A stretch of 64,000 nt of DNA from Clostridia bacterium (GCA_017410505.1 JAFQQR010000027.1:31461-95460); one strand, 5' to 3'; shown: positions 9,386 through 60,466, numbered from the stretch's first letter. Translations and numbers: made by a program. Notes: generated from the sequence alone by a model not told the origin.

Positions 9386-9999
9386 CTCTTTCCTCCTTTT
9401 AAAATCCCATATTTTAAAAATTCTATTTGTCTTAAATAATCTTCTCTGGCCTTTTCTTTTGATTCATATTTAAATCTCATAACTATTGCTTTATTAGTTA
9501 TTGCAAATAAAATTTTCTCAATTATTTCTAAATCGTCTTTTGTTTTTATATTCAAATTGTCTATATTGATTCTTTCTATGCAATCTTTTATTTTTATTGG
9601 TCTGTCTTTTATTATATTTTTTGAAAAAAGATAATCTTCACTTGTTTTTATATTTTCAAATATTTTTTTATAAAATTCCACATCTTTATTTTCTGAACAA
9701 TTATCTACCATAAAGTCATATATTGATATGAAAAATTTAAAAATGTCTCCGTTAGCTTTTTCTAAGTCTTCCTTTATTTTTTCATTCATTTCTTCAAAAT
9801 GTTTGCTTAAAATAAAACCTAGTAAATCTTCTTTATCTTCAAAATATTGATAAAAACTGCCTCTTGCAATTTCTGCATCTTCTACTATATTTTTTATTGA
9901 TACCTGTTCTAATGGTACTCTTGCAAATTCTTTTTTTGCTGAAAATATAATTTTTTCTTTCTTTTCTTCAGAAAGTTTTAAAAATGTTTCTTTTGGCAT
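9379..9999 (-). CDS. TetR/AcrR family transcriptional regulator
   Basis: The TetR HTH is IFSAKKEFARVPLEQVSIKNIVEDAEIARGSFYQYFEDKEDL. The true start is MPKETFLKLS with RBS GGGGATGAG. The track ORF is extended through the upstream operator. Confidence 0.85.
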   Translation of the reverse strand: MPKETFLKLSEEKKEKIIFSAKKEFARVPLEQVSIKNIVEDAEIARGSFYQYFEDKEDLLGFILSKHFEEMNEKIKEDLEKANGDIFKFFISIYDFMVDNCSENKDVEFYKKIFENIKTSEDYLFSKNIIKDRPIKIKDCIERINIDNLNIKTKDDLEIIEKILFAITNKAIVMRFKYESKEKAREDYLRQIEFLKYGILKGGKRC

Positions 10000-12882: not shown

Positions 12883-14601
12883 TTATAAACAAATATTAGA
12901 TACTCCTAATATTTGTTTTTTTAAAATAAATGTATCTCCTGTATCTAATGAATTATCACTATTTACATCTGCTGCTATTTTGTAATATTTATTACTAAAA
13001 TTTTTCACATTTAACACAACACATTTCAAAATGTAAGTATCTCCTGTATCAACTTCTCCATCTCCATTGCAATCACCTTTTTTTACAACTATATATTGAT
13101 CTTCTACTATAAATCCTGTAGCCATTGAATCATTTTCGCCATTAAGAAAACTTCCATCTGCTTTTGTTATTTTTGTAGGACCTCCAAAAGTTTCTAATAT
13201 ATCGCTCGCAATTGCATCTGGAGTAACCATTATGATTCTTTTATCTTTATCAACATTTACTTTGTTCGTATTTGTTAATGTATTATCTGAGGTATTTTGA
13301 TTATTGCTATTAGAATTGTCCCCACTTACAGGCACTAAATACAATTTATACGCACTCTCACTTTCATAAGTTTCTCTAGCCGCATAACCTTCTGTTCCAT
13401 TAGATTTTCTTACCTTATCCCAATAAGTACCATTAACTTTAGAAGTTGCCTTTTCTATTCTTGTAACAATTTCATCTTTATATAAATATCCAACAGTTGT
13501 ATCTCCATTTGGATTATTTCTTATTCTTAATGAACTATCTACATTTACCTTTACTAAATCTATTTCTGTAGAACTTGTTCCATTTGAATCTGGTCTACTA
13601 CAAATATCTGTAGGCATATTTTCATATACAGGTATTATAAATGTATGTTTAGATGCCATTATATTTGTATTTATATATGTATTTCTTAAAGTTGTTCCTT
13701 CACTTTGAGCTGCTAAGATATTTTGCATATATTGATTTGAATATAAACCATTAGTTGCAGCTACATCAAATTTTTGCAAATATAAAGTATTTTGTCCTTT
13801 TTGTATGTATTGACTAGCTAAAAAACTAATACCTCCATTTATTGACGCTTCTAAACTTGTCCATCCTTTCTTTTGTGCATATGCAAGAGCATTTGTTAAA
13901 ATTTCTGATGTTGAATTTCCTGATGCTGCTATATTAAATGCATTATAATATCCTGCATATTGTCCATTATATCCACTTCCAGATGTTAACACTGTCCCAG
14001 ATGCTCCTTGTTCTTGTATTAATCTTGCCGCTATATAATAACAATTTACATTATTATTTGTTGCTGCATCTATTATCCCTTGTTCATGTCCTGAAAGAAA
14101 TGTTCCACTTGTCATAGTTCTTAAAATATTTATATCACATCCTGCATTTGTTAGCTCTTCAAATTGAAAAATATCTGATTCATTGATTGATACTCTTGGG
14201 TCCATCATATATTTTATAGCTTGTTCTGATACGCATCTCCAACTTCCATTATCATATGCTCTATCCCCACATATTGGGCAAAGCCATGCACCTTGGTAGT
14301 TTGATGTTTTGTATACTAAATTTTTTGGTGAGCCTCCATGCCCTGTAAATTCATTTGCTATAACTTCATTCCAATCTAACCCAGTATAAAGTACTTTAAA
14401 TGTCCAATTTGGATATTTGCTTTGTAACGTCTTTATCTTATCTTTTATTCCTGGATATTTTGAGTTATCTATTCCATCTATATTTGTGCTTATACTTTGT
14501 GTAACCGCGTATGTTTTATTTTGATAAATTATTGATATTAAAATATTTAGTAATATTGCTAGAATTAAGACTGATGATAATATTTTTATTATTTTTTGCA
14601 T
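12883..14601 (-). CDS. Secreted cell-wall hydrolase (glucosaminidase-like catalytic region) with a bacterial SH3 domain and a C-terminal type-I dockerin
   Basis: The true start is the ATG at 14601 with a GGAGG RBS; the track used an upstream TTG. SH3_3-like segment: NPNGDTTVGYLYKDEIVTRIEKATSKVNGTYWDKV. Dockerin duplicated Ca-binding loops: DCNGDGEVDTGDTYILK and DVNSDNSLDTGDTFILKKQIL. Confidence 0.65.
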   Translation of the reverse strand: MQKIIKILSSVLILAILLNILISIIYQNKTYAVTQSISTNIDGIDNSKYPGIKDKIKTLQSKYPNWTFKVLYTGLDWNEVIANEFTGHGGSPKNLVYKTSNYQGAWLCPICGDRAYDNGSWRCVSEQAIKYMMDPRVSINESDIFQFEELTNAGCDINILRTMTSGTFLSGHEQGIIDAATNNNVNCYYIAARLIQEQGASGTVLTSGSGYNGQYAGYYNAFNIAASGNSTSEILTNALAYAQKKGWTSLEASINGGISFLASQYIQKGQNTLYLQKFDVAATNGLYSNQYMQNILAAQSEGTTLRNTYINTNIMASKHTFIIPVYENMPTDICSRPDSNGTSSTEIDLVKVNVDSSLRIRNNPNGDTTVGYLYKDEIVTRIEKATSKVNGTYWDKVRKSNGTEGYAARETYESESAYKLYLVPVSGDNSNSNNQNTSDNTLTNTNKVNVDKDKRIIMVTPDAIASDILETFGGPTKITKADGSFLNGENDSMATGFIVEDQYIVVKKGDCNGDGEVDTGDTYILKCVVLNVKNFSNKYYKIAADVNSDNSLDTGDTFILKKQILGVSNICL

Positions 14602-22687: not shown

Positions 22688-22710
22688 AATTATTTCCTTT
22701 AAATTTCATT

Positions 22711-22783
22711 ATTTTAAATATTTATCTCTATTTTAAATATTTATCTCTATTTTAAATATTTATCTCTATTTTAAATATTTATT
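22711..22783. repeat. 19-bp direct tandem repeat ATTTTAAATATTTATCTCT, 3 full copies plus 1 partial, between the WYL gene 3' end and the HNH gene start
   Basis: Read directly from the sequence. The copies are contiguous with no spacers, so this is not CRISPR. Confidence 0.85.
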
Positions 22784-23758
22784 ACTTGCATCCTCTATTA
22801 TTTTAATTATTTCACTTCTTAGATTTATAGGTTTTTTTACTTCTACTAGATCTAAATTTCTCATAGCCCATAGTTTAAATCCAAAAGGATTTACTTTAAG
22901 CTTCATTTTAAAACTATCTTTATTGATTGGTGCTATTTCTACATTTTTGCCAAATTTCTCAATTACTTCTCCTAACAAATATTCATTGCATTCCGCTTCT
23001 ATTTCTACCTCATCACCACTAAATACCTCTACAGATGTATCTGCATATTGTTCTATATCCTTTTCAGATTTACTTATTTTTATTATCTCTGCTAGTTCTT
23101 TTAAATTTTTTATTCTATCTAGTCTATAATGATAAAACTCTTTATTTCCATCTTTTATTGCTAACATGTAGAATTGCTGTTTATCATATATTATAGCATA
23201 AGGAGAAACTACAGGGGTACTTACAATTTGTTTTTCCACTCTATCTCCTACTATGCAGTATTTCCAATATTCAAATTTAACTTTATTTTTATTCATTATG
23301 CTATTTGAAATATCTTCAATGTTTTTTATAACTTCAACATTATTTGTTCTTCCTTTTGGAGAATATACTCTATAATTTTTAATCTTTTCATTTTCATATA
23401 CATTTTGTAAGTTCTTACATTTTCTTATTATTCCTTTGGCCATTCTCTGTTCGATGAATGTAGAATAGCTAAATGTATCAATAATAGCTCTTATCTCTCC
23501 TGGTTCAAAATCTGTTTCTGGATCATTGCTTATGTAATACCCTATTTTGTTATCATTATATGTGCTAATGTCATATCCAAATTTTTGTTGCAAAAGATTA
23601 ATATTTCTTCTTATTGTTCTTGGATCAATATCTTCTCCATATTCTTCTTTGATTTTTTCTTTAAGTTCTGATATTGATAGTTTATGTTCTTCATCACTGT
23701 ATTTTTTTAATACATTTAATATGTATAATATGTTTCCATTTTTTTCGTATAAATCCAT
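22766..23758 (-). CDS. WYL domain-containing transcriptional regulator (HTH-WYL, BrxR/CapW-like)
   Basis: The N-terminal wHTH is YILNVLKKYSDEEHKLSISELKEKIKEEYGEDIDPRTIRRNINLLQ. A central WYL-like region and a C-terminal extension follow. 330 aa. Confidence 0.7.
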   Translation of the reverse strand: MDLYEKNGNILYILNVLKKYSDEEHKLSISELKEKIKEEYGEDIDPRTIRRNINLLQQKFGYDISTYNDNKIGYYISNDPETDFEPGEIRAIIDTFSYSTFIEQRMAKGIIRKCKNLQNVYENEKIKNYRVYSPKGRTNNVEVIKNIEDISNSIMNKNKVKFEYWKYCIVGDRVEKQIVSTPVVSPYAIIYDKQQFYMLAIKDGNKEFYHYRLDRIKNLKELAEIIKISKSEKDIEQYADTSVEVFSGDEVEIEAECNEYLLGEVIEKFGKNVEIAPINKDSFKMKLKVNPFGFKLWAMRNLDLVEVKKPINLRSEIIKIIEDASNKYLK

Positions 23759-34541: not shown

Positions 34542-37220
34542 TTATTTTTCAAGTCTTTCCATTACTTTTTGAAGCATTTCTCTATATTTTTCTAATTTAT
34601 CTTTTTCCTCTTGAATTTTCTTTTCAGGTGCTTTGTTTACAAATCCTGGATTTGAAAGCATTTTTTCACATCTTGCAACTTCAGCTTCTAATTTAGTTTT
34701 TTCTTCTTCTAGTCTTTTTCTTTCTTCTTCCATATCAACTAAATCTTCAAGCGGCATATATAGTTCAATTCCATCTTGCATTATAGCTATGCTGTTTTCT
34801 GCTATTCCTGTTTTATCTTTTTGAACTCTTATTGATGTTCCAAATCCTAGTTTTAATAAGAATTCTTGTGCTTCTAAAATTTCTTTTTCATATTTTTCAG
34901 TTACAAATATTAATTCTGATTTTTTAGATGGATGTATATTCATATTTGCTCTTATATTTCTTATTTCAACTATTATTTGTTTTATTTTTTCAACTGTTTG
35001 TTCTTCTATTTCAAATACAAATTCTTTTCTTATTCTTGGCCATTTTGAAACCATTAAATCTTCATCTTTATATTTTACTAATTTATCAAAAATTTCAGAT
35101 GTTACAAATGGCATAAATGGATGTAATAATTTTAACGATGTTTCAAATACATGGTTTAATATGTCACTTACTGCTATTTTTGTTTCTTCATTTTCACTAT
35201 ATATTCTTGATTTTACCATTTCTATATACCAATCACAGAATTCATTCCAAATAAATCCGTATATTTTATCAATAGCAATTCCTAAATCATAGTTTTCTAT
35301 ATTTTTTGTTACATCTGCTACTAATTTGTCTAATTTATTTAAAATCCATTTATCTTCCAATGTTAGATATTCTGGGTTGTATGAATGTGTTTCATGGTTA
35401 TATACTTTATGACAGAATTCTTTTACTTTTTCTTCATCTGGTGTATTCATTATTATGAATTTAGCTGCATTCCAAATTTTATTTGCAAAGTTTGATGCTT
35501 GGTCTAGTTTTTCTGGCATGTATCTTATATCATTTCCCATTGTTGTTCCTGATAATACAGAAAATCTTAATGCATCTGCTCCATATTGGTCGATTATTTC
35601 TATTGGGTCAATTCCATTTCCTAATGATTTTGACATTTTTCTTCCTTGTGAGTCTCTTACTATTCCATGTACTACGACATCTTTAAATGGATTTTGATTT
35701 GTTAATTCTAATCCTTGTGTCATCATTCTTGAAATCCAGAATGTTATAATATCATATCCTGTAACTAATGCGTTTGTTGGATAGAATGTTTTATAATCTT
35801 CATTTTCTTCGTTTGGCCAACCAAGTGTTGAGAATGGCCATAATGCTGAACTGAACCATGTATCTAATGAATCTTCATCTTGGTGTAATTTATTAGAACC
35901 ACATTTTTCACATTTTTCTGGCATCTGTTTTGCTGCATGCATATGTCCACATTCATCACAATAGTAAATTGGAATTCTGTGTCCCCACCATAATTGTCTT
36001 GATATACACCAATCTTGAATATTATCTAACCAGTTGAAGTACATTTTTTCATATCTTTTTGGTACAAATTTTACTTCATCGTTTCTAACTGAGTCTGCTG
36101 CTCTTTTTGCTAAATCTTTCATACTTACAAACCATTGCTCAGAAATTCTTGGTTCTATTGTATTATGACATCTATAGCATTTTCCAACATTATGAGTATA
36201 GTCCTCTGTTTTTACTAATGCTCCTATTTCTTCTAGTTTTTTAACTATTTCTTTTCTTGCATCTATTGATTTCATTCCTTTATATTCTGGAACTAAATCT
36301 CCCATTATTGAACTGTCATTAAATACTTCTATAATTTCTAAATTGTTTCTTAATCCAGCTTGATAATCATTTGGGTCATGTGCTGGTGTAATTTTTACAC
36401 ATCCTGTTCCAAATTCTTTTTCTACAAAGTCATCTGCAATTATTGGAATTTCTTTATTCATAATTGGAAGTATACATTTTTTTCCTATTATATCTTTATA
36501 TCTTTCATCATCTGGATGTACTGCAACAGCTGTATCTCCAAGCATTGTTTCTGGTCTTGTTGTTGCAACAATTATATATTTATCTGTATCTTTTATTTGA
36601 TATCTTATATGCCATAAATGTGAAGCTTCATCTTCATACTCAACTTCTGCATCTGATATTGTTGTGTGACATGATGGACACCAGTTTATCATTTTTTTAC
36701 CTTTATAAATTAGATCTTTATTATATAAACTAATAAATTGTTCTAATACTGCTTCAGATAAACCTTCATCCATAGTAAATCTATTTCTTTCCCAATCACA
36801 AGAACATCCAAGTCTTCTTTGTTGTTTTTGAATAGTTCCACCATATTCCTTAGTCCAAGCCCAAGCTCTATCTAAAAACTCTTCTCTTGTAATATCAGCT
36901 TTTGTTAAGCCTTCTTCCTTTTTCATCTTTTCAACAACTTTTACTTCTGTTGCAATAGCAGCATGGTCTGAACCTGGAAGCCATAAAGTATTATAACCTT
37001 GCATTCTTTTAAATCTTATTAAAATATCTTGTATTGTACCATCTAAAGCATGTCCCATGTGTAATTTACCTGTTACATTTGGTGGTGGCATCATTATACA
37101 ATAACTTTCTTTTGTTTTGTCCATACTTGGTTTAAAGTATCCTTTTTCTTCCCAGTCTTGATATAGCTTTTCTTCAAAATCCTTTGGGTTGTATTTGTCA
37201 TTTAATATTTTATCTTTCAT
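34542..37220 (-). CDS. valS: Valine--tRNA ligase
   Basis: HIGH (PNVTGKLHMGHAL), KMSKS (KMSKSLGN), the editing domain and the C-terminal coiled coil are all present. The true start MKDKILNDKYNPKDFEEKLYQDWEEKGYF has a GAGGAGG RBS. Confidence 0.95.
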   Translation of the reverse strand: MKDKILNDKYNPKDFEEKLYQDWEEKGYFKPSMDKTKESYCIMMPPPNVTGKLHMGHALDGTIQDILIRFKRMQGYNTLWLPGSDHAAIATEVKVVEKMKKEEGLTKADITREEFLDRAWAWTKEYGGTIQKQQRRLGCSCDWERNRFTMDEGLSEAVLEQFISLYNKDLIYKGKKMINWCPSCHTTISDAEVEYEDEASHLWHIRYQIKDTDKYIIVATTRPETMLGDTAVAVHPDDERYKDIIGKKCILPIMNKEIPIIADDFVEKEFGTGCVKITPAHDPNDYQAGLRNNLEIIEVFNDSSIMGDLVPEYKGMKSIDARKEIVKKLEEIGALVKTEDYTHNVGKCYRCHNTIEPRISEQWFVSMKDLAKRAADSVRNDEVKFVPKRYEKMYFNWLDNIQDWCISRQLWWGHRIPIYYCDECGHMHAAKQMPEKCEKCGSNKLHQDEDSLDTWFSSALWPFSTLGWPNEENEDYKTFYPTNALVTGYDIITFWISRMMTQGLELTNQNPFKDVVVHGIVRDSQGRKMSKSLGNGIDPIEIIDQYGADALRFSVLSGTTMGNDIRYMPEKLDQASNFANKIWNAAKFIIMNTPDEEKVKEFCHKVYNHETHSYNPEYLTLEDKWILNKLDKLVADVTKNIENYDLGIAIDKIYGFIWNEFCDWYIEMVKSRIYSENEETKIAVSDILNHVFETSLKLLHPFMPFVTSEIFDKLVKYKDEDLMVSKWPRIRKEFVFEIEEQTVEKIKQIIVEIRNIRANMNIHPSKKSELIFVTEKYEKEILEAQEFLLKLGFGTSIRVQKDKTGIAENSIAIMQDGIELYMPLEDLVDMEEERKRLEEEKTKLEAEVARCEKMLSNPGFVNKAPEKKIQEEKDKLEKYREMLQKVMERLEK

Positions 37221-37237
37221 AATCTTTATCCTCCTCT

Positions 37238-37519
37238 TGTCCATTTGGGACGTTTCTTTTTGGACAAAAATGTCCATTTGGGCCAGATGTTGTGTCCTTT
37301 TGAATACCATATTTTCCTTTTTGTTCTTTTGTTAATTCTTCTCGTTTACTTAATTCATAATTTAATAATTCATCTTCTAGTCTTTCTCTTAATGTCATAA
37401 ATCGTAGTGCTTCTTTAAATAAATTTTTCATTTATACCTCCTTTGTCCATCTTGTCCGTCTGGGATGTTTCTGTTCTTTTGGGTACGTATCTATTTGGGA
37501 CATGTCCCAGAATGGACAT
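37238..37519. repeat. MITE-like element with terminal inverted repeats of the TGTCCAWWTGGGACGTTTC family, inserted between the valS T-box terminator and the valS RBS
   Basis: The left end TGTCCATTTGGGACGTTTCTTTTTGGACAAAAATGTCCATTTGG closely matches the uvrA-copy TIR. The right end carries the inverted copies GGGACATGTCCCAGAATGGACAT. Confidence 0.5.
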
Positions 37520-37524
37520 AAAAA

Positions 37525-37790
37525 TAAAATAGCCCACCCTTATTGTAAAATAAGGGCGAGCTTTTATCTCACGGTACCACCTTAATTATTATCTATTGCT
37601 ATTATTTAGATAACATCTCATTTAGCTTTAACGCAGCTTTACGGATAATCTTAAGTTTATTTTCGGATTATCAACTCCAAAGTTACTTTCCATTTATCCT
37701 AATTTCAGAAGTTTACAGCCTATGACTTCTGTTCTCTTTAAATTGGTGCTTAAATGTACTTTTCTTTTTCTTTGTTTTTATTTTATTATG
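37525..37790 (-). ncRNA. T-box riboswitch leader (valine specifier GUA) for valS
   Basis: On the minus strand: a Stem I AGAGA motif, the specifier GGCUGUAAAC, and the T-box sequence AATTAAGGTGGTACCGTGAG. The terminator hairpin GCCCTTATTTTACAATAAGGGTGGGC is followed by a U tract. Confidence 0.7.
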
Positions 37791-37853
37791 GCAATATTAT
37801 ATAACTTTTTATTCTGTTTGTCTAGTAAAATTTTGATTTTTAAACCAACAAAA

Positions 37854-38537
37854 TTATTCACAAAGACTAGCTAAAGATATATATTCATCTTTATTACATT
37901 CATTTAAAAGAATAATCGTCTTTATCTTTTGAGAAACATAATACTGTCTGTCCCAAGATGATTTGTAAAACTCATAACGCTTCTCTAATATTTTAGGTTC
38001 ATTTTCAGTAAGATATACCGGCAATCTTTCTCCAATATTTAAGTCTATCTCTATAAGATATACATTAGATAGAAAATCCCCATAATCTACTTCATCATCA
38101 ATGAACCGTATTCTCCTGAGTACCCTAACCCTGTCTTTCATAGAAGCTGGAATAAAGATATCATCTGGAATAACATCAGTACTTCTGAGCAAAGCATACA
38201 TAAGGTCCTTTGATGGTTTTGTTAGATAGTCAACATGATATGTATTTTTGCTTGTTTTCTTTAAAAAAACACCTTCTAATAAAAGATCTTCTTCTAAATC
38301 CTTTTCTTTAATGTCTTCTGGCAGAATAATTTTAATGTATTCCTGCTTTTTTTCAGATTCCACGTAATTAGGAATTGATAATTTTAATCTAAAAGAAGAT
38401 AATTCTTTTATTTTTACATTACCATTCCATTTCCGTTCACAAATACCTGCGTTAATAAATAATTTCATTTTTGCCTCCTTAATGGTATAAACCATTGTTA
38501 TTTGATACTTTACAATATAATTATCTTGTAAATACAT
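37854..38537 (-). CDS. Hypothetical protein
   Basis: 227-aa ORF with no recognisable motif. A 74-aa ORF (38579-38803) lies just upstream. Confidence 0.35.
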   Translation of the reverse strand: MYLQDNYIVKYQITMVYTIKEAKMKLFINAGICERKWNGNVKIKELSSFRLKLSIPNYVESEKKQEYIKIILPEDIKEKDLEEDLLLEGVFLKKTSKNTYHVDYLTKPSKDLMYALLRSTDVIPDDIFIPASMKDRVRVLRRIRFIDDEVDYGDFLSNVYLIEIDLNIGERLPVYLTENEPKILEKRYEFYKSSWDRQYYVSQKIKTIILLNECNKDEYISLASLCE

Positions 38538-38784
38538 ACCTCCTTTTTTAGGATAGGCTAAATTTTATCATAAAAATATTAAGAAATCAATAAAATTATT
38601 ACCATTTTTTTGACAACTCCGTGCTTTCCTCTTATTATAACCGTTCCTGTCCATCTATCATCCATTTCTAATAGCAATTCTTCAAGAAATGAAGAATCAT
38701 ATTGTTGAAATAATTGAAATGCAGATAGACCTTGTAGCTCACCCGCTTGACGAAATCTTTTTTTACATAATTTCGCAATCTTTA

Positions 38785-38823
38785 TAAAAAAAATCGATAT
38801 CATATGATACCGATTTTTTTTAT
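38785..38823. terminator. Bidirectional terminator ATCGATATCATATGATACCGAT flanked by A and T runs, 3' of pspA
   Basis: Read from the sequence. Confidence 0.55.
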
Positions 38824-38832
38824 TAGAAAATT

Positions 38833-39507
38833 TTATAATCCCATTTCCTTTTTCAATTTTTCTAATTCATCTTCTACAGCAATAGAAGTATTACTATATT
38901 TATCTTCTAAGCTCTCTATTTCTGCATTAACATCACTATTTAATTCAGCTGTAGAATTTGCTATATCCAGCATATTATCTGCTTTTTCTTCCATTCTTTC
39001 AAATGCATTCATTGCATCACTTGCAGTGCCCATTGAGCTTGATACTTTATTTAATTTTTCTTGTGTTCTCGCAACTGCAACTTTTGATTTAACATTTTTT
39101 CTACGTTGTTCAAGTTCTTGAACATCTTTTGTTAATTTATCATGCATTTCTCTCATTTTTGTTGCATTTGCTTTTGCCACTTCATAAGATTTTTGTAAAT
39201 CTACTCCATTATTTACATACTCTTGCTTTTTAGTCAAAAATGTTTTTGCATCTTCTTCATTTCCTGCAGTTAATGCTTTTCTAGCAAATTGATCATATTT
39301 TTCTATTTGCTCTGCATTTTCATCTACTAAACGTTTTGTTCTTTTTTCTTCTGCCATAACTCCTGCTGTTTCTTTTTTAACTTCTGCAAGTTGTTCAACA
39401 ACTTGTCTCATATATTCATCTATCATCTTCTCTGGATTCTCACATTTATCCAAAATTGCATTTATGTTTGCTGACATTATATCTCTAAATCTATTTAATA
39501 TTCCCAT
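38833..39507 (-). CDS. pspA: PspA/IM30 family protein (phage-shock protein A / LiaH-like)
   Basis: MGILNRFRDIMSANINAILDKCENPEKMIDEYMRQVVEQL... is a coiled-coil PspA-family protein. 224 aa. Confidence 0.9.
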   Translation of the reverse strand: MGILNRFRDIMSANINAILDKCENPEKMIDEYMRQVVEQLAEVKKETAGVMAEEKRTKRLVDENAEQIEKYDQFARKALTAGNEEDAKTFLTKKQEYVNNGVDLQKSYEVAKANATKMREMHDKLTKDVQELEQRRKNVKSKVAVARTQEKLNKVSSSMGTASDAMNAFERMEEKADNMLDIANSTAELNSDVNAEIESLEDKYSNTSIAVEDELEKLKKEMGL

Positions 39508-39529
39508 TATTTTTCCTCCTAAAATTTTA

Positions 39530-40555
39530 TTATTTTCCTTTATATTTCTTTTCTAACTCACTTGTATCTGTTCCAAAAGTTTCAAGTGGTTTTTCTAATA
39601 TTTTTTCTGTGAATTCTTCTTTTTCTTTTTCTCTTTGGTGTTTGCTTTTTATCATTTTATATATAAATACAATAATTAATATGATTACTATTGCAATTAT
39701 TAAAATTTTTGCAACATCCCATCCATTTGTTGGCTTACTCATAATTGATTTTGCTGTTTCACTAAATGTCTTTGATATCATTTTTTCTATACTTAAAGAC
39801 GTGTTATAATAATTTGTTTCAAAATATCCCCACAAAATGCTTATTGCTTCATTATCCATAATAGTATCTGCGCTATATCCACTTAGATATCTAAATTCTC
39901 CATCCATTTCAGATTTAGAATCATTTTTACATTGGAAATATGCAAAAATAAAATGTCCTTCATCTTTAAATTTTTCTTTATATACTTCTTCTAAATATTC
40001 ATCAGCTTTTGTTACTATGATATTATTTCCATTCCAATATTGTCCTGAATATGGAACAAACAATACATATGGCTGTATTCCTGTCTTTTTATAAAATTCT
40101 TCTAAACCAGTGATTAAATCATTTTTTGATGTTATCCATCCTATTTTATCTTCATACCAGTCTGTTTTTGAAACCACACCATTTAACGCTACTCTTTGTG
40201 TTGTATTTTTAGATACCTTTGATGAATTAACTGAAGTCTTTTGAATAGTAGGTATCACTATAATCATTAATATAATGAAAATTGCTATTATTGTTGACCC
40301 TATACTACCCTGACTGCGTCTATATGTATATCCTGGACCAGGTCTGTGATAATGTGGTCTTCTGTGAATTGGTCCTGGTTGTGGTGGCCTATTATAAGGT
40401 CTTGAATGTCTTGATGGGCCAAAACCTCCACCTCCAAAGCCTCCTCTTGATGAGTTACTTCTTGATGAACGTCCTCCTCCTGAAAATCCACCTGATGAAT
40501 GACCTCCTCCAAAGCCTCCGACCGCTGTGACTACGTCCTCCACTACTGCTTCCAC
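39530..40555 (-). CDS. Membrane protein with a Gly/Ser/Arg-rich N-terminal region and an extracytoplasmic domain, hypothetical; in the operon with pspA
   Basis: 341 aa. The N-terminus is GGFGGGHSSGGFSGGGRSS...GGFGGGGFG...PQPGP. There are two TM helices. Confidence 0.5.
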   Translation of the reverse strand: MEAVVEDVVTAVGGFGGGHSSGGFSGGGRSSRSNSSRGGFGGGGFGPSRHSRPYNRPPQPGPIHRRPHYHRPGPGYTYRRSQGSIGSTIIAIFIILMIIVIPTIQKTSVNSSKVSKNTTQRVALNGVVSKTDWYEDKIGWITSKNDLITGLEEFYKKTGIQPYVLFVPYSGQYWNGNNIIVTKADEYLEEVYKEKFKDEGHFIFAYFQCKNDSKSEMDGEFRYLSGYSADTIMDNEAISILWGYFETNYYNTSLSIEKMISKTFSETAKSIMSKPTNGWDVAKILIIAIVIILIIVFIYKMIKSKHQREKEKEEFTEKILEKPLETFGTDTSELEKKYKGK

Positions 40556-40591
40556 CGCTTCTTCCCATTTGTATATTCTCCTTTCGTTATA

Positions 40592-41032
40592 TTATTTATC
40601 TCTTTTTTTGAATACTGTTTTTAAAAGTAATCCTGAACCTGCTGCTGCTAATCCCATGATAATAATATAATCAAACATAGATGTTGGAACAAAACTTATT
40701 CTGATACTCATTATAATTGTTATAATTATAAATACAACTCCTAAAGTCATAATAATTTTTGGTATTACAGATTTTGAATTGTAAAATTGCCATATAATTC
40801 CTATAATAAGTGGAACTGTGACTAATCCAGATGATATATCAAAACTTCCTATTCTCCAAATATGCCAACTACTATGAACCATTACTCTTTTACTTAGCAT
40901 AAACAGTCCTGCACCTAACATTATTATCCCTAAGAAAAATTGTAATACTTCATTGTTATCTTCTTTTGTTTCTTTTATATTATCTCTTAGTTCTTTTAGT
41001 TCTTCTTCTAACTGCTTATCTTTTCTATTCAT
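40592..41032 (-). CDS. Small polytopic membrane protein, first gene of the pspA operon (LiaI/PspC-like role, speculative)
   Basis: 146 aa. A charged N-terminus is followed by 3-4 TM segments. Confidence 0.45.
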   Translation of the reverse strand: MNRKDKQLEEELKELRDNIKETKEDNNEVLQFFLGIIMLGAGLFMLSKRVMVHSSWHIWRIGSFDISSGLVTVPLIIGIIWQFYNSKSVIPKIIMTLGVVFIIITIIMSIRISFVPTSMFDYIIIMGLAAAGSGLLLKTVFKKRDK

Positions 41033-41227
41033 AAAACACTCCTTTCTCGTTTGTTATTTGGTATTCATATCTTAACATATTTATCTTGCTTTTACAAGGA
41101 TTTTATTTATCTATTGTGTATTTTGACATTTCTACAAAATTATAGTATAATGTAATTAGTTTGTTAAACACATGCTGTAACTAAACTTACTTAAAATCAA
41201 TAATTTGAATTAAGGAGGATATTTCAA

Positions 41228-41473
41228 ATGGCAAACCGTAAAGAAAATTATAAAGATATGGAAAAATGGCGGAAAGCTCTGAATGCTCAAAAAAAAAGGT
41301 ACTATTCTAAAACTGCAATATATAAACCTAGTACCTGGACATTAGAGCATGACAGATTAATATTGGAACATAATGCCACAGATGCTGAATTATCTAAAAT
41401 TATTAAGCATTCTGTAAATGCTATCCAAAAGAGACGATGTCGTTTGAAAAAAATGCTAAAAGAGAACAACTGA
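41228..41473 (+). CDS. Small hypothetical protein
   Basis: 81 aa with the RBS AAGGAGGA. A terminator hairpin lies directly after it. Confidence 0.45.
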   Translation: MANRKENYKDMEKWRKALNAQKKRYYSKTAIYKPSTWTLEHDRLILEHNATDAELSKIIKHSVNAIQKRRCRLKKMLKENN

Positions 41474-41475
41474 AA

Positions 41476-41516
41476 ATATAGCAGAGAAATCAATAAATTT
41501 CTCTGCTATATTTTTA
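41476..41516. terminator. Bidirectional terminator ATATAGCAGAGAAAT...ATTTCTCTGCTATAT
   Basis: Read from the sequence. It sits between the plus ORF at 41228-41473 and the uvrA stop. Confidence 0.55.
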
Positions 41517-44351
41517 TCATAAATACTTCTCCAAAAACTTTCCAGTATAACTTTGCTCATTCTTACAAATCTGTTCAGGTGTTCCAACAGCAACAATTTG
41601 TCCTCCTCCATCTCCACCTTCTGGTCCTAAATCAATAATATGGTCACATGTTTTTATTAAATCTAAATTATGCTCTATAACAATTATTGTATTCCCAGTA
41701 TCAACTAATCTTTGTAAAATATCTACTAATCTATGAACATCAGCTATGTGAAGACCTGTTGTTGGCTCATCTAAAATATATAATGTTTTTCCTGTTGCTC
41801 TTTTAGAAAGTTCTGTTGCAAGTTTAACTCTTTGTGCCTCTCCTCCTGATAATGTTGTTGATGGTTGCCCTAATTTAATATATCCTAGTCCAACATCATT
41901 TAGTGTTTGAATTTTTTGTTTTATTTTTGGTATTTTATCAAAAAATTCTAATGCCTCTTCTACTGTCATATCTAGTACATCTGCTATTGTCTTTCCTTTA
42001 TATTTTACTTCTAAAGTTTCTCTGTTATATCTTTTTCCTTTACATACTTCACAAGGTACATAAACATCTGGTAAAAAGTGCATTTCTATTTTGTGCACAC
42101 CATCACCATTACAGCTTTCACATCTTCCCCCTGCTACATTAAAGCTAAATCTTCCTTTATCAAATCCACGTAGTTTTGCTTCATTTGTTCCTGCAAATAT
42201 ATCTCTTATTAAATCAAAAACTCCTGTATATGTTGCTGGGTTTGAACGAGGTGTTCTTCCTATTGGTGATTGGTCTATATTGATTATTTTGTCTATATTT
42301 TCTAAACCTTTTACTGCTTTACATTTTCCTGGTTTCTCACTTGCTCCATTTAATTCTTTTGCTATAGTTTTATATAAAACTTCATTTACTAATGTTGATT
42401 TTCCTGAGCCTGAAACTCCTGTAACACATGTGAATACTCCTAGTGGAAATTTTACACTTATATTTTTTAGATTATTTTCTGTTGCATTTTTTACTTCTAT
42501 TACTTTTGATTTAGTATGCTTTCTTCTTGTTTTTGGAACTTCTATTTTCTTTCTTCCACTTAAATATTGTCCTGTTATCGAATTTTTTACTTGTTTTATT
42601 TCTTCTGCTGTTCCTTGCGCCATAACATTTCCACCATGAACTCCTGCTCCTGGTCCAATATCAATTATTTGGTCTGCTGCGTACATTGTGTCTTCATCAT
42701 GTTCTACAACTAAAAGTGTATTTCCTAAATCTCTTAATTTTTTTAATGTTGCTATTAATTTGTCATTATCTCTTTGGTGAAGTCCAATACTTGGTTCATC
42801 TAATATATACATAACTCCTGTAAGCCCTGAACCTATTTGTGTTGCTAAACGAATTCTTTGAGCCTCCCCTCCTGATAATGTGCCTGCACCTCTTGATAAT
42901 GTTAGATATTCAAGTCCTACATCTATTAAAAATTGAAGTCTTGTGTTTATTTCTTTTAATATCAAATCTGCAATCATCGCTTCTTTTTTTGTCAATTGTA
43001 CATTACTTAAGAACTCTTTCATTGCTTTTATTGACATATCTGTTATTTCATTTATGTTTTTATCTCCAATTTTTATACATAATATTTCTTTCTTTAGACG
43101 AGCTCCATTACATGTTGTACAATGAGAATTTGTCATATACATTTCATAAAAGCTTCTCATTCCTTGTGATTTTGTTTCGCTATGGCGTCTCTCTAATGTT
43201 GGTAACACTCCTTCAAATGGAGAAGTGAATTTTCTTACACCTGCAGCTGATTCATATTGAAAGTCTATTTTTTCATCACCTGTACCATATAAGATTTTTT
43301 CTAAAAACCATCTTGGTAATTTTTTAATTGGCACGCCTTTTATTTTTACTCCATAATGTCTTCCTATGCTTTCGAAATACATTCTTGCCATTGTATCTCC
43401 TTTTTTCATAGTACTTGACCCAAATGCTTTTACTCCATCATATAAAGTTTTATTTTTATCTGGTATTATTAAGTCCTCATCCATTTTCATTAAAAATCCA
43501 ATTCCCATGCAATCTGGACATGCTCCATATGGATTATTAAATGAAAACATTCTTGGTGTTAGCTCTGGAAAACTGAATCCACAATCTGGACATGCATAAT
43601 TAGAACTATACAATACCATTTTTTCTCCATCTTTGCTGAATATATTTACTAATACAAGATTTTCTGCGTGTTTTAATGCCACTTCTACTGACTCTGTAAG
43701 TCTACTTCTTATTTCTTCTTTCACGACTAATCTATCTACAATTAATTCAATTTCATGCTTTTTGTTTTTCTCTAATTTGATTTCATCTGATAAATCATAA
43801 ACTTCTCCATCGATTCTCACTCTAACAAATCCATCTTTTTGGTAACTTTCTAATTGTTTTACAAATTCACCTTTTCTTCCTCTCACAACTGGTGCTAATA
43901 TTTGTATTTTTGTACCTTCTTCTAAAGCCATTATATTATCAATAATCTGGTCTATTGATTGTTTCTCTATTTTTTTGCCACAATTCGGACAATATGGTAC
44001 CCCTATATTTGCATATAATAAACGTATGTAATCATATATTTCTGTAACTGTTCCAACTGTTGAACGTGGATTTTTTGATGTTGTTTTTTGGTCTATTGAT
44101 ATTGCAGGCGATAGCCCCTCTATTGATTCTACATCTGGTTTTTCCATTATTCCTAAGAATTGTCTTGCATATGATGATAGACTTTCTACATATCTTCTTT
44201 GCCCTTCTGCATATAATGTATCAAATGCTAGTGATGATTTTCCTGAACCTGATAGCCCTGTTACTACTACCATTTTGTCTCTTGGTATTTCTAAATTTAT
44301 GTTTTTTAGATTATGTTCTTTTGCTCCTTTTATTATTATTTTATCATTCAT
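41517..44351 (-). CDS. uvrA: Excinuclease ABC subunit A
   Basis: Two ABC ATPase modules ([27 protein letters not shown]) and zinc-finger Cys clusters. The start [25 protein letters not shown] has a GGAGGA RBS. Confidence 0.95.
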
Positions 44352-44364
44352 TTTTATTCCTCCA

Positions 44365-44572
44365 ATGTCCAAATGGGACGTTTCTAAATGAACAAAAATG
44401 TCCATTTGGAAACGTTCTTTTGAGATATTATACTATATTTTTTTATTTAAAACAAGAGTTTGGTAAATATTTCTTCTCTTTATTGAATATAAACCATATC
44501 CTAGAATTTAAATACAAAAGATCGGTTCTTTTTGGACATTTTTGTCCATTTAGAAACGTCCCATTTGGACAT
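44365..44572. repeat. MITE-like element of ~208 bp with perfect 20-bp TIRs (ATGTCCAAATGGGACGTTTC / GAAACGTCCCATTTGGACAT), extending to ~40 bp with 1 mismatch
   Basis: Read from the sequence. The left TIR abuts the uvrA RBS. There is an internal subterminal direct copy TGTCCATTTGGAAACGTTC. Confidence 0.6.
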
Positions 44573-47259: not shown

Positions 47260-47516
47260 AAAGAACCTCCTTAAATTGTTGACTTTTTATATTGGTTTTC
47301 AGTTACTTAAAAATTAGCTCTACATATCATATCCTCCTTACCTTTCTATTCAATTGTTAATGTACAACATGTATATTAATTGATATCGTATCATCAATTA
47401 ATATACTAAATTATACGAACAGTTTTCACTTTGTTGCACATACATTTCTGCAACTTTTGTAAAAATTTCGCACGTTTAGTATTATAACACGGTACATTTT
47501 TTATGTCAATCTTTTT

Positions 47517-47742
47517 CAGTTTTTTGTAAAATCTGCATTACATCTCAGCATAAATACATATATATTAAAATTCCGTTCCTTGCTGGTCGGACTAATCATA
47601 TGAGCAGAATATAGGTATGTCAAAGTTTGAATAGTTAATCTGGGTGGTCTGTATGTTTTTGTGTCATTCCAAACTGCGCGTCACTGCATTTTAATATATA
47701 TGTATTTATGCTGAGATGTAACGCAGATTTTACAAGAAACTG
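47517..47742. repeat. 55-bp near-perfect inverted repeats (47517-47571 and 47688-47742, 2 mismatches) flanking a 116-bp core; inverton-like or MITE-like
   Basis: Left arm CAGTTTTTTGTAAAATCTGCATTACATCTCAGCATAAATACATATATATTAAAAT. Right arm ATTTTAATATATATGTATTTATGCTGAGATGTAACGCAGATTTTACAAGAAACTG. Confidence 0.6.
47595..47623 (-). promoter_or_regulatory. Consensus sigma-A promoter TTGACA-N17-TATGAT inside the IR-flanked core, currently oriented toward the P-type ATPase gene
   Basis: On the minus strand, TTGACA sits at 47623-47618 and TATGAT at 47600-47595, with a 17-nt spacer. Confidence 0.45.
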
Positions 47743-48012
47743 AAACTTAAATTTTCGTTTTTTAATCATCTCGCTTTACTTTTTATGTAAATTATAATAT
47801 AATATCCTAGCATACCGGTATTTTTAACATTATAAAAAAATTTTATAATGAATGGAGTAATTATTTTTATCGGTAGATAATTAAAATAGTTTCTCTAGCA
47901 AACAAAATTATCCTCAGCAATTGCAAGGTTAAATTTTGTTATTCTTAAGAAAAAACTATTTTTGTAACAATAATTTCATACTTAAATAACATCAAGAAAG
48001 GAAAATATCATT

Positions 48013-55930: not shown

Positions 55931-56083
55931 ATTTCTATCACCCTTTCCTATAATGTTAATTTAGCTATTTTAATAAGCTGAATTGCTTTGTATATTTTAT
56001 CATGCTTTACATAAAAAGTAAAGTGTTTGTATAGATGAGTTGTAAAAAGTAGTTTCTGTCCAAAAAGAAATGTCCCTATTGAA

Positions 56084-56107
56084 CACAATATTAAAGGAGT
56101 AGGCATT
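56084..56107. terminator. Hairpin GGAGTAGGCAATGCCTACTCC with a flanking T-run (bidirectional)
   Basis: Read from the sequence. It lies directly 3' of the minus gene 56110-56481. Confidence 0.45.
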
Positions 56108-56109
56108 GC

Positions 56110-56481
56110 CTACTCCTCTTTTTTGCATTTTTCATTTAATTCTATTAGTCTTGCTTTATTTATATACCTCTTTCTCTTATCTTCTTCTGTAAGTTCCGGT
56201 GGCATATTTTTTCTTACTACAATTTCACCATTTATATATTTCTTATCATCCATTCTATACATCATGTTAGTTATTGGATCCCAGAAAAAGCTTTTTCCAT
56301 CTTTCTCTTTCTTAATTAGGTATATTTCACCTAAAATTTGATTTGCAGAAATATAAACTGAACTACCTAAGTTCTCTATTTTTCGTAGAAAAAGTTCACA
56401 TTTATATAAACTTTCTATACAATACTCTTCTTCCCGTAGTCCTTTTGTTGCTTGTAACTGTTTCATTTTAAATTCCTCCAT
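56110..56481 (-). CDS. Hypothetical protein
   Basis: 123-aa ORF. Confidence 0.4.
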   Translation of the reverse strand: MEEFKMKQLQATKGLREEEYCIESLYKCELFLRKIENLGSSVYISANQILGEIYLIKKEKDGKSFFWDPITNMMYRMDDKKYINGEIVVRKNMPPELTEEDKRKRYINKARLIELNEKCKKEE

Positions 56482-59571: not shown

Positions 59572-60324
59572 CTAATTTTCTAATTCATACATAATAATAC
59601 TTAAGACATTTAACGCTACTGTTTCTGTTCTTAATATCCTTTTCCCTAAAGTTATTATTTCTGCTCCACTATTTTTTAAGATTTCAACATCGTTTTCTTC
59701 TAATCCACCCTCAGGTCCTATAATAATTCCTATTTTTAATTTACTATACTCTTCACTTGATTTAATCTTTTTTAATTGTTGTTTCAAAGTATTTTCTTTT
59801 TCGTTTTCATATGCTACTAATACTATATCATAATTATCTATTAAATTACATAGTTTTTTTACATTTATTATATTATTTATTTTTGGAATTAAATCTCTAC
59901 CACATTGTTTTGCTGCTACTTCAGATATTTTTTGCCATCTTAGTTCTTTTTTATTTTTATCTTTTTCATTAAGTTTTACAACACATCTTTTCATCTCTAT
60001 TGGTGTTATATCATAAACTCCTAATTCCACTGACTTTTGTATTATATATTCCATTTTATCAGCTTTTGGCAACCCTTGAAATATTGTAACTTCTATATTA
60101 GATTCTACCTTTTCTTCTATTTTCTTTTTTATATTACATATTATATTTTCATTTTCTATATTTTTTATATCACATAAGAAATTTTCTCCATTTTGGCTGT
60201 TGCATATTTGCAACTCATCTCCTATTTTCCCTCTTAAAACTTTTCTTATATGATTTACATCCTGTCCTTGAATAATTATTTTATTATCTTGTATTTGTTC
60301 TTGTTTTACAAAAAATTTTGGCAT
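59572..60324 (-). CDS. rsmE: 16S rRNA (uracil1498-N3)-methyltransferase RsmE
   Basis: MPKFFV...IQGQDVNHIRKVLR (PUA-like N-terminus) and the SPOUT C-terminus GIIIGPEGG. Confidence 0.85.
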   Translation of the reverse strand: MPKFFVKQEQIQDNKIIIQGQDVNHIRKVLRGKIGDELQICNSQNGENFLCDIKNIENENIICNIKKKIEEKVESNIEVTIFQGLPKADKMEYIIQKSVELGVYDITPIEMKRCVVKLNEKDKNKKELRWQKISEVAAKQCGRDLIPKINNIINVKKLCNLIDNYDIVLVAYENEKENTLKQQLKKIKSSEEYSKLKIGIIIGPEGGLEENDVEILKNSGAEIITLGKRILRTETVALNVLSIIMYELEN

Positions 60325-60466
60325 TTATTTTCTCCTTTTTGTCCATTTTGGGACACATGTTCTTTCGAATTATATCATATCATCCCATTTTTTTCAAATA
60401 TAAAAAGCACCAAGACTATTTAAATTTTTAGTCTTGGTTAATATCATTAATTTAATTTTTTCAATA

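What the first reader, a model, noticed from the sequence alone, without database searches (positions are those of the whole stretch)
37238..37519. Dispersed MITE-like repeat family (TGTCCAWWTGGGACGTTTC TIRs) inserted immediately 5' of the ribosome-binding sites of valS, uvrA and rsmE
A ~20-bp palindromic motif occurs at least 9 times in 4 loci of this 64-kb window. At uvrA, a complete 208-bp element has perfect 20-bp TIRs (≈40 bp with 1 mismatch). At valS, a ~282-bp element with the same TIR family sits between the T-box terminator and the RBS. A solo copy, GTGTCCCAAAATGGACA, lies 5 nt from the rsmE RBS (60335-60360), and there is a remnant at 56046-56075. In every case the TIR ends 1-5 nt before the Shine-Dalgarno sequence. 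That placement suggests either insertion-site preference or a regulatory role, for example an RNA hairpin next to the RBS. The motif also creates spurious shared peptides (GHFCP.RNVP) in overlapping ORFs.
Basis: seen in the sequence. Interest (0 to 1): 0.65.

Follow-up and report, generated by a model that had tools for sequence, protein, structure and literature searches.

The report
Transposase-linked repeats beside gene starts
The repeats in front of valS, uvrA and rsmE are real and belong to a family of short inverted-repeat modules that, in related gut Clostridia, always flank one fixed, single-copy tyrosine (HUH) transposase gene, so this is a new Clostridial example of the known REP/RAYT-type "domesticated transposase plus scattered repeats" system, not a classical MITE.

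Summary
The motif occurs at four loci, against about 0.02 hits expected by chance. It sits 1-3 nt from the Shine-Dalgarno sequences of valS, uvrA, rsmE and a small ORF.

The unit is a 16-30 nt module: A = TGTCCCAWWWTGGACA, B = ATGTCCAAAMR-GAAACGTCCCAWWTGGACA. Modules occur singly, as doublets or as inverted pairs.

In related low-GC gut Clostridia MAGs, inverted copies flank a single-copy Y1/HUH transposase gene. Its closest solved structure is E. coli TnpA_REP (4ER8). The gene always lies between a small hypothetical gene and radA. Each transposase lineage carries its own module variant, and the dispersed copies in that genome match that variant. This is the REPtron/TIRtron (RAYT/TIRYT) architecture.

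The "208-bp uvrA element" is not one mobile unit. Its interior is the native uvrA promoter, which is conserved in a species that has no repeats.

Across 385 kb, 23 of 47 complete modules face an SD plus start codon (13 distinct genes, median gap 5 nt). Eleven face a stop codon. None is in the opposite orientation.

The window holds no transposase gene, and catalysis is inferred. This is a new member of a known kind, of moderate interest.

The parts
37238..37268 (-). B module (TTGTCCAAAAAGAAACGTCCCAAATGGACA). Its outward end lies 2 nt before the valS SD (AGGAGG).
   Evidence: Exact 19-mer. nhmmer E=3e-10. Sequence read.
37270..37290 (-). Degenerate A module (CATCTGGCCCAAATGGACA). Together with the B module it forms an A+B doublet.
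   Evidence: 37271-37285, 1 mismatch. Alignment with L054, where this position reads TGTCCCAAATGGACA.
37210..37431 (-). 73-aa ORF with a strong SD. Its first 45 codons are a 136-nt lineage-specific segment. Its last codons are the A+B doublet translated. Its stop overlaps the valS start. It is probably not a conserved gene.
   Evidence: Only 2 homologues among 5.8e9 proteins. The differences from L054 are mostly nonsynonymous. No Pfam or NCBIfam hit.
37440..37519 (-). Distal module cluster just after the T-box terminator. It holds a palindromic A (37503-37518), a degenerate A (37488-37502) and a degenerate B (about 37453-37486). It is followed by the SD of the 73-aa ORF.
   Evidence: A less degenerate version is seen in L054.
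37531..37781 (-). Context: valS T-box leader with its terminator. The modules lie in the leader downstream of it.
   Evidence: Rfam RF00230, 117.5 bits. Terminator-like site at 37562-37531.
44365..44422 (-). uvrA 5'-UTR doublet: a degenerate B followed by a B. The outward end lies 2 nt before GGAGG.
   Evidence: The orthologue L022 has a single B module here and L026 has none.
44427..44463 (-). Native uvrA promoter block (CAAACTCTTGTTTT...ATATAGTATAAT) lying between the two doublets.
   Evidence: Conserved in the window, L022 and the repeat-free L026 (blast).
44515..44572 (+). uvrA distal doublet in inverted orientation. Its outward end faces the terminator and stop of the upstream P-type ATPase gene.
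   Evidence: Absent at this position in L022 and L026.
56053..56085 (+). Degenerate B module. Its outward end faces the terminator and stop of gene 56110-56481(-).
   Evidence: (I16).
60340..60355 (-). Solo A module (TGTCCCAAAATGGACA) in the rsmE 5' UTR, 3 nt before AGGAG.
   Evidence: A promoter-like site TTGAAA-17-TATAAT at 60397-60369(-) lies just upstream.

Best explanation
The motif copies are modules of a REP-like / terminal-inverted-repeat family that belongs to a RAYT-type system, called a 'REPtron' or 'TIRtron'. In this clade of low-GC gut Clostridia, one chromosomal, vertically inherited Y1/HUH tyrosine transposase gene sits between a small hypothetical gene and radA. That gene is itself bracketed by inverted copies of the modules.

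By analogy with E. coli TnpA_REP and IS200/IS605 TnpA, the enzyme is inferred to recognise the short hairpins the modules form in single-stranded DNA, and to cut and rejoin there. This would seed and homogenise 16-50-nt modules in intergenic DNA in trans.

Selection then keeps only harmless placements: in 5' UTRs right next to the SD in the 'sense' orientation, and just after stop codons or terminators in the opposite orientation. In that opposite orientation the transcript reads a small hairpin followed by a U-run.

Shown here:
- The repeat family exists.
- It flanks the transposase gene.
- The transposase sits at a single fixed locus.
- Each transposase lineage is matched to its own repeat variant.
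- The placement and orientation rule holds.

Inferred:
- That the transposase acts on the modules.
- That the window's own genome carries the transposase gene.
- The reason for the orientation rule.
For: 1. A 259-aa ORF (L038:922-1701) lies between inverted modules. It matches Pfam Y1_Tnp at 57 bits against a cutoff of 23. Its best NCBIfam match is 'REP-associated tyrosine transposase'. It carries HVH and YIHQNP, the class-2 Y---NP signature described in PMC6006769. The AlphaFold model has pLDDT 89.8. Its top PDB match is 4ER8, TnpA_REP bound to a REP hairpin (E=1.2e-6, TMt 0.73), followed by the IS608 and ISDra2 TnpA structures. A profile search of PDB sequences returns only 4ER8.

2. Orthologues at 53-84% identity (L039, L041, L043, L050, L052) and ten strains carrying the identical protein all show the same synteny: mreB - radical SAM - hypothetical - transposase - radA - disA - PPIase.

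3. Every orthologue is flanked by inverted modules, and the module sequence differs by lineage.

4. Dispersed copies in each locus match only that genome's own variant: L043 6 own and 0 other, L041 3 and 0, L052 3 and 0.

5. The window's B module is identical in 29 of 30 positions to the one flanking the L038 transposase.

6. Many homologues sit on contigs of about 1 kb, as expected if flanking repeats break assemblies.

7. Placement rule: 23 of 47 modules face an SD plus start codon (13 distinct genes), 11 face a stop codon, and 0 of 47 are reversed. The antisense strand of the modules scores as terminator-like.

8. RAYT-like genes flanked by TIR families are a described kind (PMC3733652; PMC6006769).
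Against: - The 64-kb window contains no transposase gene. I could not show that this genome has one.
- The NCBIfam RAYT score (64.9) is below the curated cutoff of 80.
- The canonical REP features are missing. There is no GTAG tag, and the ssDNA hairpins are short and weak, at -3 to -9.6 kcal/mol.
- Ten strains of one species showed stable module positions and no clean insertion/empty-site pair, so recent mobility is not demonstrated.
- Modules are common at the edges of intergenic regions. 'Flanked by modules' is therefore less exceptional than it would be in a repeat-poor genome, although 6 of 6 lineages with matched variants is far beyond chance.
- No biochemical data exist for this subclass.
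Confidence: 0.8

Rival explanations
1. Classical MITE. The 208-bp and 282-bp structures are deletion derivatives of a DDE-type insertion sequence, mobilised as whole units through their TIRs.
For: There are long inverted ends: 58 nt at 88% complementarity. In other genomes a 250-285-bp long-palindromic subfamily with homologous interiors occurs at non-orthologous loci: L016/L034/L037, L010, L035, L003, L027 and L024. That subfamily does behave like a MITE or REPIN.
Against: - No target-site duplication appears at any copy read.
- The uvrA interior is the native promoter, present in the repeat-free L026.
- The only coding sequence bracketed by the ends is a Y1/HUH gene fixed at one locus.
- No DDE gene with these ends was seen in 385 kb.
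Confidence: 0.05
2. Operator sites. The modules are binding sites of a DNA-binding regulator, possibly the C-terminal helix-turn-helix part of the transposase-like protein itself, which controls the adjacent genes.
For: - In the window the SD-facing modules lie between the promoter and the SD: rsmE, uvrA and the valS leader.
- Orientation is strict.
- uvrA has sites on both sides of its promoter.
- The protein has a helical C-terminal domain with sub-threshold HTH matches.
Against: - The downstream genes are functionally heterogeneous: valS, serS, thrS-like, pth-like, rsmE, ispG-like, gpr-like, radA, uvrA and sufS-like.
- As many copies sit after stop codons.
- The number of copies at orthologous sites varies between close species: 0, 1 and 2+2 at uvrA.
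- Many copies are degenerate.
- serS orthologues show the motif diverging about as fast as coding DNA: 3 of 35 positions against 88% coding identity.
Confidence: 0.05
3. Exapted cis-acting RNA or transcription signal. Whatever their origin, the modules persist because they act in the transcript. In sense orientation they would form a 5'-UTR hairpin next to the SD that stabilises or insulates the RBS. In antisense orientation after genes they would act as weak terminators.
For: The orientation split is 13 distinct genes to 0. The antisense strand gives a hairpin plus T-run that the terminator scan flags. The outward end lies a median of 5 nt from the SD. REPs and MITEs are known to act in these ways in other bacteria (PMC3733652 background).
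Against: - The hairpins are weak, with 4-7 bp stems.
- No Rfam family matches beyond a spurious hit.
- No expression data are available.
- The orientation bias could arise purely from selection against harmful orientations, with no positive function.
- Orthologous sites gain and lose copies.
Confidence: 0.1

Closest known systems
TIRtrons / TIRYT (TIR-associated tyrosine transposases; Di Nocera et al. 2013, PMC3733652). Probably equal to TnpA_Y1 subclass 2.1 of Quentin et al. 2018, PMC6006769.
   Same: - A RAYT-like Y1/HUH gene is flanked by long inverted repeats rather than GTAG hairpins.
- The repeats form a moderately abundant dispersed family organised as singlets, dimers and clusters.
- The protein is longer than E. 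coli TnpA_REP, with a helical, HTH-like C-terminus.
- A GGGGAC-type motif occurs in the repeats. The L041 variant GGGGACAG fits the consensus GGGGWSAS.
   Different: - The host is uncultured gut Clostridia. No Firmicutes appear in the text of PMC3733652 that I searched, and PMC6006769 found no repeats next to subclass 2.1 genes.
- The window variant (GGGACGTT) fits the GGGGWSAS consensus only partly.
- The repeats are built from two short palindromic modules.
- Placement and orientation next to SDs and stop codons are strict.
- The synteny next to radA is conserved.
- My assignment to subclass 2.1 is by resemblance, not by phylogeny.
REP/REPIN-RAYT systems of Gammaproteobacteria (E. coli TnpA_REP, PDB 4ER8; Pseudomonas REPINs; PMC2817692, PMC3116915, PMC5581495)
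   Same: - A single-copy, vertically inherited Y1 transposase sits at a fixed locus, flanked by its own repeats.
- Repeat families are lineage-specific and track the transposase.
- Repeats are extragenic, often in inverted pairs.
- TnpA_REP is the best structural match.
   Different: - There is no GTAG tag.
- Stems are 4-7 bp rather than 8-13 bp.
- Many copies lie in 5' UTRs rather than mainly downstream of genes.
- The phylum is different.
- Bertels et al. reported only weak repeat association for the RAYT group that they found in Clostridia.
Bacterial MITEs such as RUP, Correia/NEMIS and ERIC
   Same: Small size, inverted ends, location next to coding sequences, co-transcription with neighbouring genes and possible effects on expression.
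   Different: Those elements are derived from DDE-type ISs. They move as whole units with target-site duplications and have a conserved interior. The window's copies meet none of these features.
IS200/IS605 insertion sequences
   Same: The catalytic fold and the HUH/Y motifs are the same. By inference, so is recognition of single-stranded DNA hairpins.
   Different: IS200/IS605 elements are multicopy. They carry asymmetric left and right ends with no TIRs, and they transpose together with their own gene. Here the gene sits at one fixed locus and only the short modules are dispersed.

Membership tests
REP/RAYT (REPtron) system | Encodes a Y1/HUH transposase of the RAYT clade, with HUH and Y---NP motifs and a TnpA_REP-like fold. 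| tested here: met
   Pfam Y1_Tnp at 57 bits. HVH and YIHQNP read in the ORF. Foldseek top hit is 4ER8. A profile search of PDB sequences returns only 4ER8. The NCBIfam RAYT model is the best match but scores below its cutoff, 64.9 against 80. This was tested on relatives (L038 and others), not in the window.
REP/RAYT (REPtron) system | The transposase gene is single-copy, at a fixed chromosomal locus and vertically inherited. | tested here: met
   The same synteny (hypothetical - transposase - radA - disA) is seen in orthologues at 53-100% identity and in 10 strains. Copy number per complete genome was not countable.
REP/RAYT (REPtron) system | The gene is flanked by inverted copies of the same repeat that is dispersed in extragenic DNA, and each transposase has its own repeat family. 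| tested here: met
   Flanks were read.
REP/RAYT (REPtron) system | The repeat is a 20-40-nt stable imperfect palindrome with a 5' GTAG (GTRG) tag. | tested here: not met
   There is no GTAG. Stems are 4-7 bp and ssDNA folding energies are -3 to -9.6 kcal/mol with modest z-scores.
REP/RAYT (REPtron) system | High genome-wide copy number, from tens to hundreds. | tested here: inconclusive
   70 modules in 385 kb of sampled loci and about 11 in the 64-kb window, or roughly 1 per 5-8 kb. No complete genome was available, and most loci were chosen because they hold a copy.
REP/RAYT (REPtron) system | The transposase binds and cleaves its repeat on single-stranded DNA. | not testable with these tools
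   This needs biochemistry.
REP/RAYT (REPtron) system | The cognate transposase is present in the genome that holds the window. | not testable with these tools
   There is no homologue in the window (tblastn). Cluster records carry no locus tags.
TIRtron / TIRYT | A RAYT-like gene is flanked by long TIRs unrelated to GTAG REPs. | tested here: met
   The definition is from PMC3733652.
TIRtron / TIRYT | The TIRs share the motif GGGGWSAS. | tested here: inconclusive
   L041 has GGGGACAG, which fits. L039 and L052 have GGGGACGT, fitting 6 of 8 positions. The window has GGGACGTT, a partial fit.
TIRtron / TIRYT | A C-terminal HTH domain (Bac_DnaA_C, HTH_23 or HTH_28-like), as in subclass 2.1. | tested here: inconclusive
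   The AlphaFold model has a helical C-terminal domain. Only sub-threshold HTH_23, CENP-B_N, KorA and sigma-70 region 4 hits appear in some members.
Classical (DDE-type) MITE | Target-site duplication flanking the element. | tested here: not met
   The flanks at uvrA (CCAA / GACA), at valS (CTCT / TAAA) and at the compact elements L015 and L032 show no direct repeat.
Classical (DDE-type) MITE | The whole element, interior included, is the repeated unit. | tested here: not met
   The uvrA interior is the native promoter, conserved in the repeat-free L026. The window's interiors have no other copies. A 250-285-bp subfamily in other genomes does meet this feature.
Classical (DDE-type) MITE | A parent IS exists with the same TIRs and a DDE transposase. 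| tested here: not met
   None was seen in the sampled loci. The only bracketed gene is Y1/HUH. Absence from whole genomes was not testable.
Single-regulon operator | A functionally coherent set of target genes, with conserved presence of the site at orthologous promoters. | tested here: not met
   The 13 downstream genes are heterogeneous. uvrA orthologues carry 0, 1 or 2+2 copies.

The most novel reading that the evidence does not exclude
The modules are not just tolerated junk. They have been co-opted as orientation-dependent 'punctuation' of transcription units in these streamlined Clostridial genomes. In sense orientation they would act as a leader hairpin that insulates or stabilises the RBS. 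In a few genes, a short upstream ORF reads through a module and ends just past the real start codon (seen at radA in L039 and L041, and at valS here), which might couple translation. In antisense orientation they would act as weak terminators after genes. The conserved transposase-like protein, with its HTH tail, would be retained to maintain them or to bind them as a genome-wide regulator.
Probability: 0.15. Interest if true: 0.7.

Novelty: new member of a known kind. Interest (0 to 1): 0.45.

Why it matters
Well-documented REPIN-RAYT systems are essentially a proteobacterial story. For the RAYT-like subclass with a C-terminal HTH, the survey in PMC6006769 found no associated repeats.

Here the transposase is fixed next to radA, its flanking repeats diversify with it, and dispersed copies match the local variant. 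That gives a clean, testable Firmicutes example of a long-lived partnership between a domesticated transposase and its repeats.

The strict rule that outward ends abut Shine-Dalgarno sequences or stop codons makes this a convenient system for asking whether such repeats are merely filtered by selection or actually used by the host.

There is also a practical consequence. The modules are open in several reading frames, so they mislead gene callers. Examples are the 962-aa extended uvrA ORF and the 73-aa 'hypothetical protein' upstream of valS. They also break metagenome assemblies.

Tried and rejected
- Rfam, at gathering and E-value thresholds, gave only the T-box and tRNA hits plus a spurious miRNA hit over the uvrA inverted repeat (32.7 bits against a gathering score of 230). 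No known RNA family matches.
- A scan of viral contigs for the 19-mer gave 0 hits, so the motif is not phage-borne.
- The six exact hits in high-GC genomes (Spongiivirga, Chloroflexaceae, Victivallales, Eremiobacteria, Paracoccaceae and others) are single copies of the kind expected by chance for a 19-mer in 596 Gb. I ignored them.
- A single-sequence PDB search of the transposase found nothing meaningful. The profile search and the fold search were needed.
- I considered LexA/SOS, CtsR, sigma-factor promoter and parS readings of the motif from memory and dropped them. The spacing and consensus do not fit, and valS and rsmE are not in those regulons.
- I tested the 73-aa ORF in the valS leader as a possible real gene. 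It has 2 homologues only, both in the same locus, and mostly nonsynonymous differences.
- I tried to link the window's genome to a specific transposase through cluster names and samples. No locus tags or shared samples were recovered.
- I tried to look for a flipped uvrA promoter in other samples, to test an inverton idea. The exact-protein look-ups of UvrA, with 945-aa and 962-aa starts, found nothing.
- I looked for strain-level insertion polymorphism in ten strains around the transposase locus. Module positions were identical, and only one spacer (disA-PPIase) is replaced in two strains.
- Conservation of the motif beyond neutral expectation was not shown. Most 'orthologous' pairs are simply close relatives.

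Full report
**1. The observation**

The window is about 28% GC. valS (34542-37220), uvrA (41517-44354) and rsmE (59572-60324) all lie on the minus strand. A T-box leader lies at 37549-37781.

The palindromic core gives 8 matches against 0.23 expected.

The uvrA inverted repeat has arms of 58 nt at 44365-44422 and 44515-44572, 88% complementary. Read directly, it is perfect for 26 nt and has one mismatch in 40 nt.

**2. What the unit is**

A scan of one genome per GTDB species with GAAACGTCCCAWWTGGACA returned 38 loci. Of these, 32 are in low-GC 'uncultured Clostridia' gut MAGs from several animal sources. Lining them up shows a longer conserved unit.
- Module B is ATGTCCAAAMR-GAAACGTCCCAWWTGGACA.
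- It is often preceded by module A, the palindrome TGTCCCAWWWTGGACA.

An HMM built from these copies finds further copies in the same loci. Many are inverted pairs 84-290 bp apart, with the ...TGGACA ends pointing outward.

**3. The turning point**

In L038 an inverted pair brackets a 259-aa ORF.
- It matches Pfam Y1_Tnp (IS200-like) at 57 bits. Its best NCBIfam match is 'REP-associated tyrosine transposase', at 64.9 bits against a cutoff of 80.
- It carries HVH and YIHQNP. The latter is the Y---NP signature that PMC6006769 gives for class 2 (TnpA_REP-like) proteins.
- An AlphaFold model has pLDDT 89.8. Its best PDB match is 4ER8, E. coli TnpA_REP bound to a REP hairpin (E=1.2e-6, TMt 0.73), followed by the IS608 and ISDra2 transposases.
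- A sequence profile finds only 4ER8 among PDB sequences.

The family has 1766 database homologues. Many sit on contigs of about 1 kb, as expected if flanking repeats break assemblies.

**4. Fixed locus and matched repeats**

Orthologues at 53-84% identity, and ten strains with the identical protein, all sit in the same place: mreB - radical SAM - small hypothetical - transposase - radA - disA - PPIase.

Each orthologue is flanked by inverted modules, and the module sequence differs between lineages. For example:
- L039: ...ATGTCCAAACGGAAACGTCCCCAAATGGACA
- L043: ...CAAAAGGAGCAAAAGGAAACGTCCCAATTG
- L041: ...AATAGGCATGGGGACTGTCCCCATAAGACA

The dispersed copies in each 8-21-kb locus match only that genome's own variant: L043 6 to 0, L041 3 to 0, L052 3 to 0.

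This is the defining architecture of REP/RAYT systems. Because the repeats lack GTAG and fold only weakly as single strands, it fits best the 'TIRtron/TIRYT' class of Di Nocera et al. (PMC3733652). Quentin et al. equate that class with TnpA_Y1 subclass 2.1 (PMC6006769).

The window's valS B module differs at one position from the one next to the L038 transposase. The window itself has no transposase homologue.

**5. The two 'elements' in the window**

L022 is an orthologous stretch from a related species, about 85% identical over window 36164-44385. L026 carries a more distant uvrA.

*uvrA.* All three species share the promoter block CAAACTCTTGTTTT...ATATAGTATAAT. L026 has no module. L022 has one B module in the 5' UTR. 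The window has a doublet there and a second, inverted doublet upstream of the promoter. So the interior of the '208-bp MITE' is host promoter DNA, and the structure is two separate placements.

*valS.* L022 has, in order: T-box terminator, two B modules, SD, valS. The window and the close relative L054 carry an extra 215 bp or so. Their order is: an A unit in inverted orientation, an A+B doublet, an SD, a 136-nt unique segment, a second A+B doublet, an SD, valS.

The 73-aa ORF across this segment has only two database homologues. It differs from L054 mostly by nonsynonymous changes. I treat it as an accidental or very young ORF.

No target-site duplications are visible anywhere.

A genuinely MITE- or REPIN-like subfamily does exist in other genomes. 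It is 250-285 bp long, forms a long palindrome and has homologous interiors at non-orthologous loci. It is not present in the window.

**6. The placement rule**

I analysed 40 non-redundant low-GC loci (385 kb). They hold 70 modules, 47 of which have a complete outward end.
- 23 have an SD, a start codon and an ORF within 60 nt beyond the outward end. The gap to the SD ranges from 0 to 28 nt, with a median of 5.
- 11 have a stop codon 0-31 nt away.
- None has a diverging gene start at the inner end.

The 23 SD-facing copies represent 13 distinct genes with mixed functions.

In the window, the SD-facing modules lie downstream of promoter-like sites or of the T-box: rsmE, uvrA and valS. The uvrA distal doublet faces the terminator of the upstream gene, and the 56-kb copy faces the stop and terminator of its upstream gene.

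A simple reason is suggested by the terminator scan. It flags the antisense strand of the modules as a hairpin plus T-run. That orientation would be harmful in a 5' UTR and harmless or useful after a gene. This is inference only.

**7. What is not shown**

- I could not show that the window's genome carries the transposase.
- I found no clean filled-site/empty-site pair. Ten strains have identical module positions.
- The motif is not conserved beyond neutral expectation between serS orthologues.
- No expression or biochemical data exist.

**8. Comparison and novelty**

The held literature contains neither this motif nor any Firmicutes REPIN/RAYT paper.
- Bertels et al. note a RAYT group present in Clostridia that has only weak repeat association (PMC5581495).
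- Quentin et al. found no repeats beside subclass 2.1 genes.
- Di Nocera et al. list no Firmicutes in the text I searched.

I file this as a new member of the RAYT/TIRYT-with-repeats kind, with an unusually clear placement rule. It is not a classical MITE, not a regulon operator and not a known RNA family.

Noticed in passing
window 47514-47745: An unrelated 232-bp long inverted repeat (78-nt arms, 86% complementary, 76-nt centre) lies upstream of the P-type ATPase gene. It belongs to a different sequence family and may be another hairpin-type or MITE-like element.
   Followed up: partly
window 22694-22791: Four to five tandem copies of a 19-bp AT-rich unit (TTTAAATATTTATCTCTAT), found by the repeat scan.
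   Followed up: no
L038 about 1740-1790; L039 about 9900-9945; also L041, L043, L050 and L052 upstream of the transposase gene: A conserved palindrome, AAAAGTATAGCA-N17-19-TGCTATACTTTT, lies between the upstream module and every transposase orthologue. It stays constant while the modules vary. It contains TGcTATACT, which looks like an extended -10. It may be the promoter or an autoregulatory site of the transposase gene.
   Followed up: partly
L039 10775-10890; L041 10775-10860; window 37210-37300: In L039 and L041 the radA ATG directly abuts the module doublet, and the only good SD lies upstream of the doublet. A short ORF starting after that SD reads through the doublet and stops a few codons after the radA ATG. 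The 73-aa ORF ends the same way over the valS start. This may be termination-reinitiation coupling across an inserted module.
   Followed up: partly
window 41517-44405: The modules are open in several reading frames. The longest uvrA ORF therefore starts inside the module, giving 962 aa against 945 aa from the SD-preceded ATG. Neither version is on record as a called product. Modules of this kind can mislead start-codon annotation.
   Followed up: partly
L010 997-1446: A second, distant (30% identity) Y1-transposase homologue occurs in a genome that also carries the modules. It is not flanked by them within the locus.
   Followed up: no
L058 and L060 against L059, L061-L067, positions about 13350-13470: Among ten strains with identical transposase protein, the disA-PPIase spacer exists in two unrelated versions, both containing degenerate GGGAC/GTCCC motifs. 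This was the only strain-level turnover seen.
   Followed up: partly
L016 4278-4563; L010 4046-4288; L035 7010-7260; also L003, L024 and L027: A 250-285-bp subfamily is bounded by the modules. Its interior is itself a long imperfect palindrome and is homologous between non-orthologous loci and genomes, so it is REPIN- or MITE-like. It fills whole intergenic spacers, for example upstream of an ispG-like gene.
   Followed up: partly
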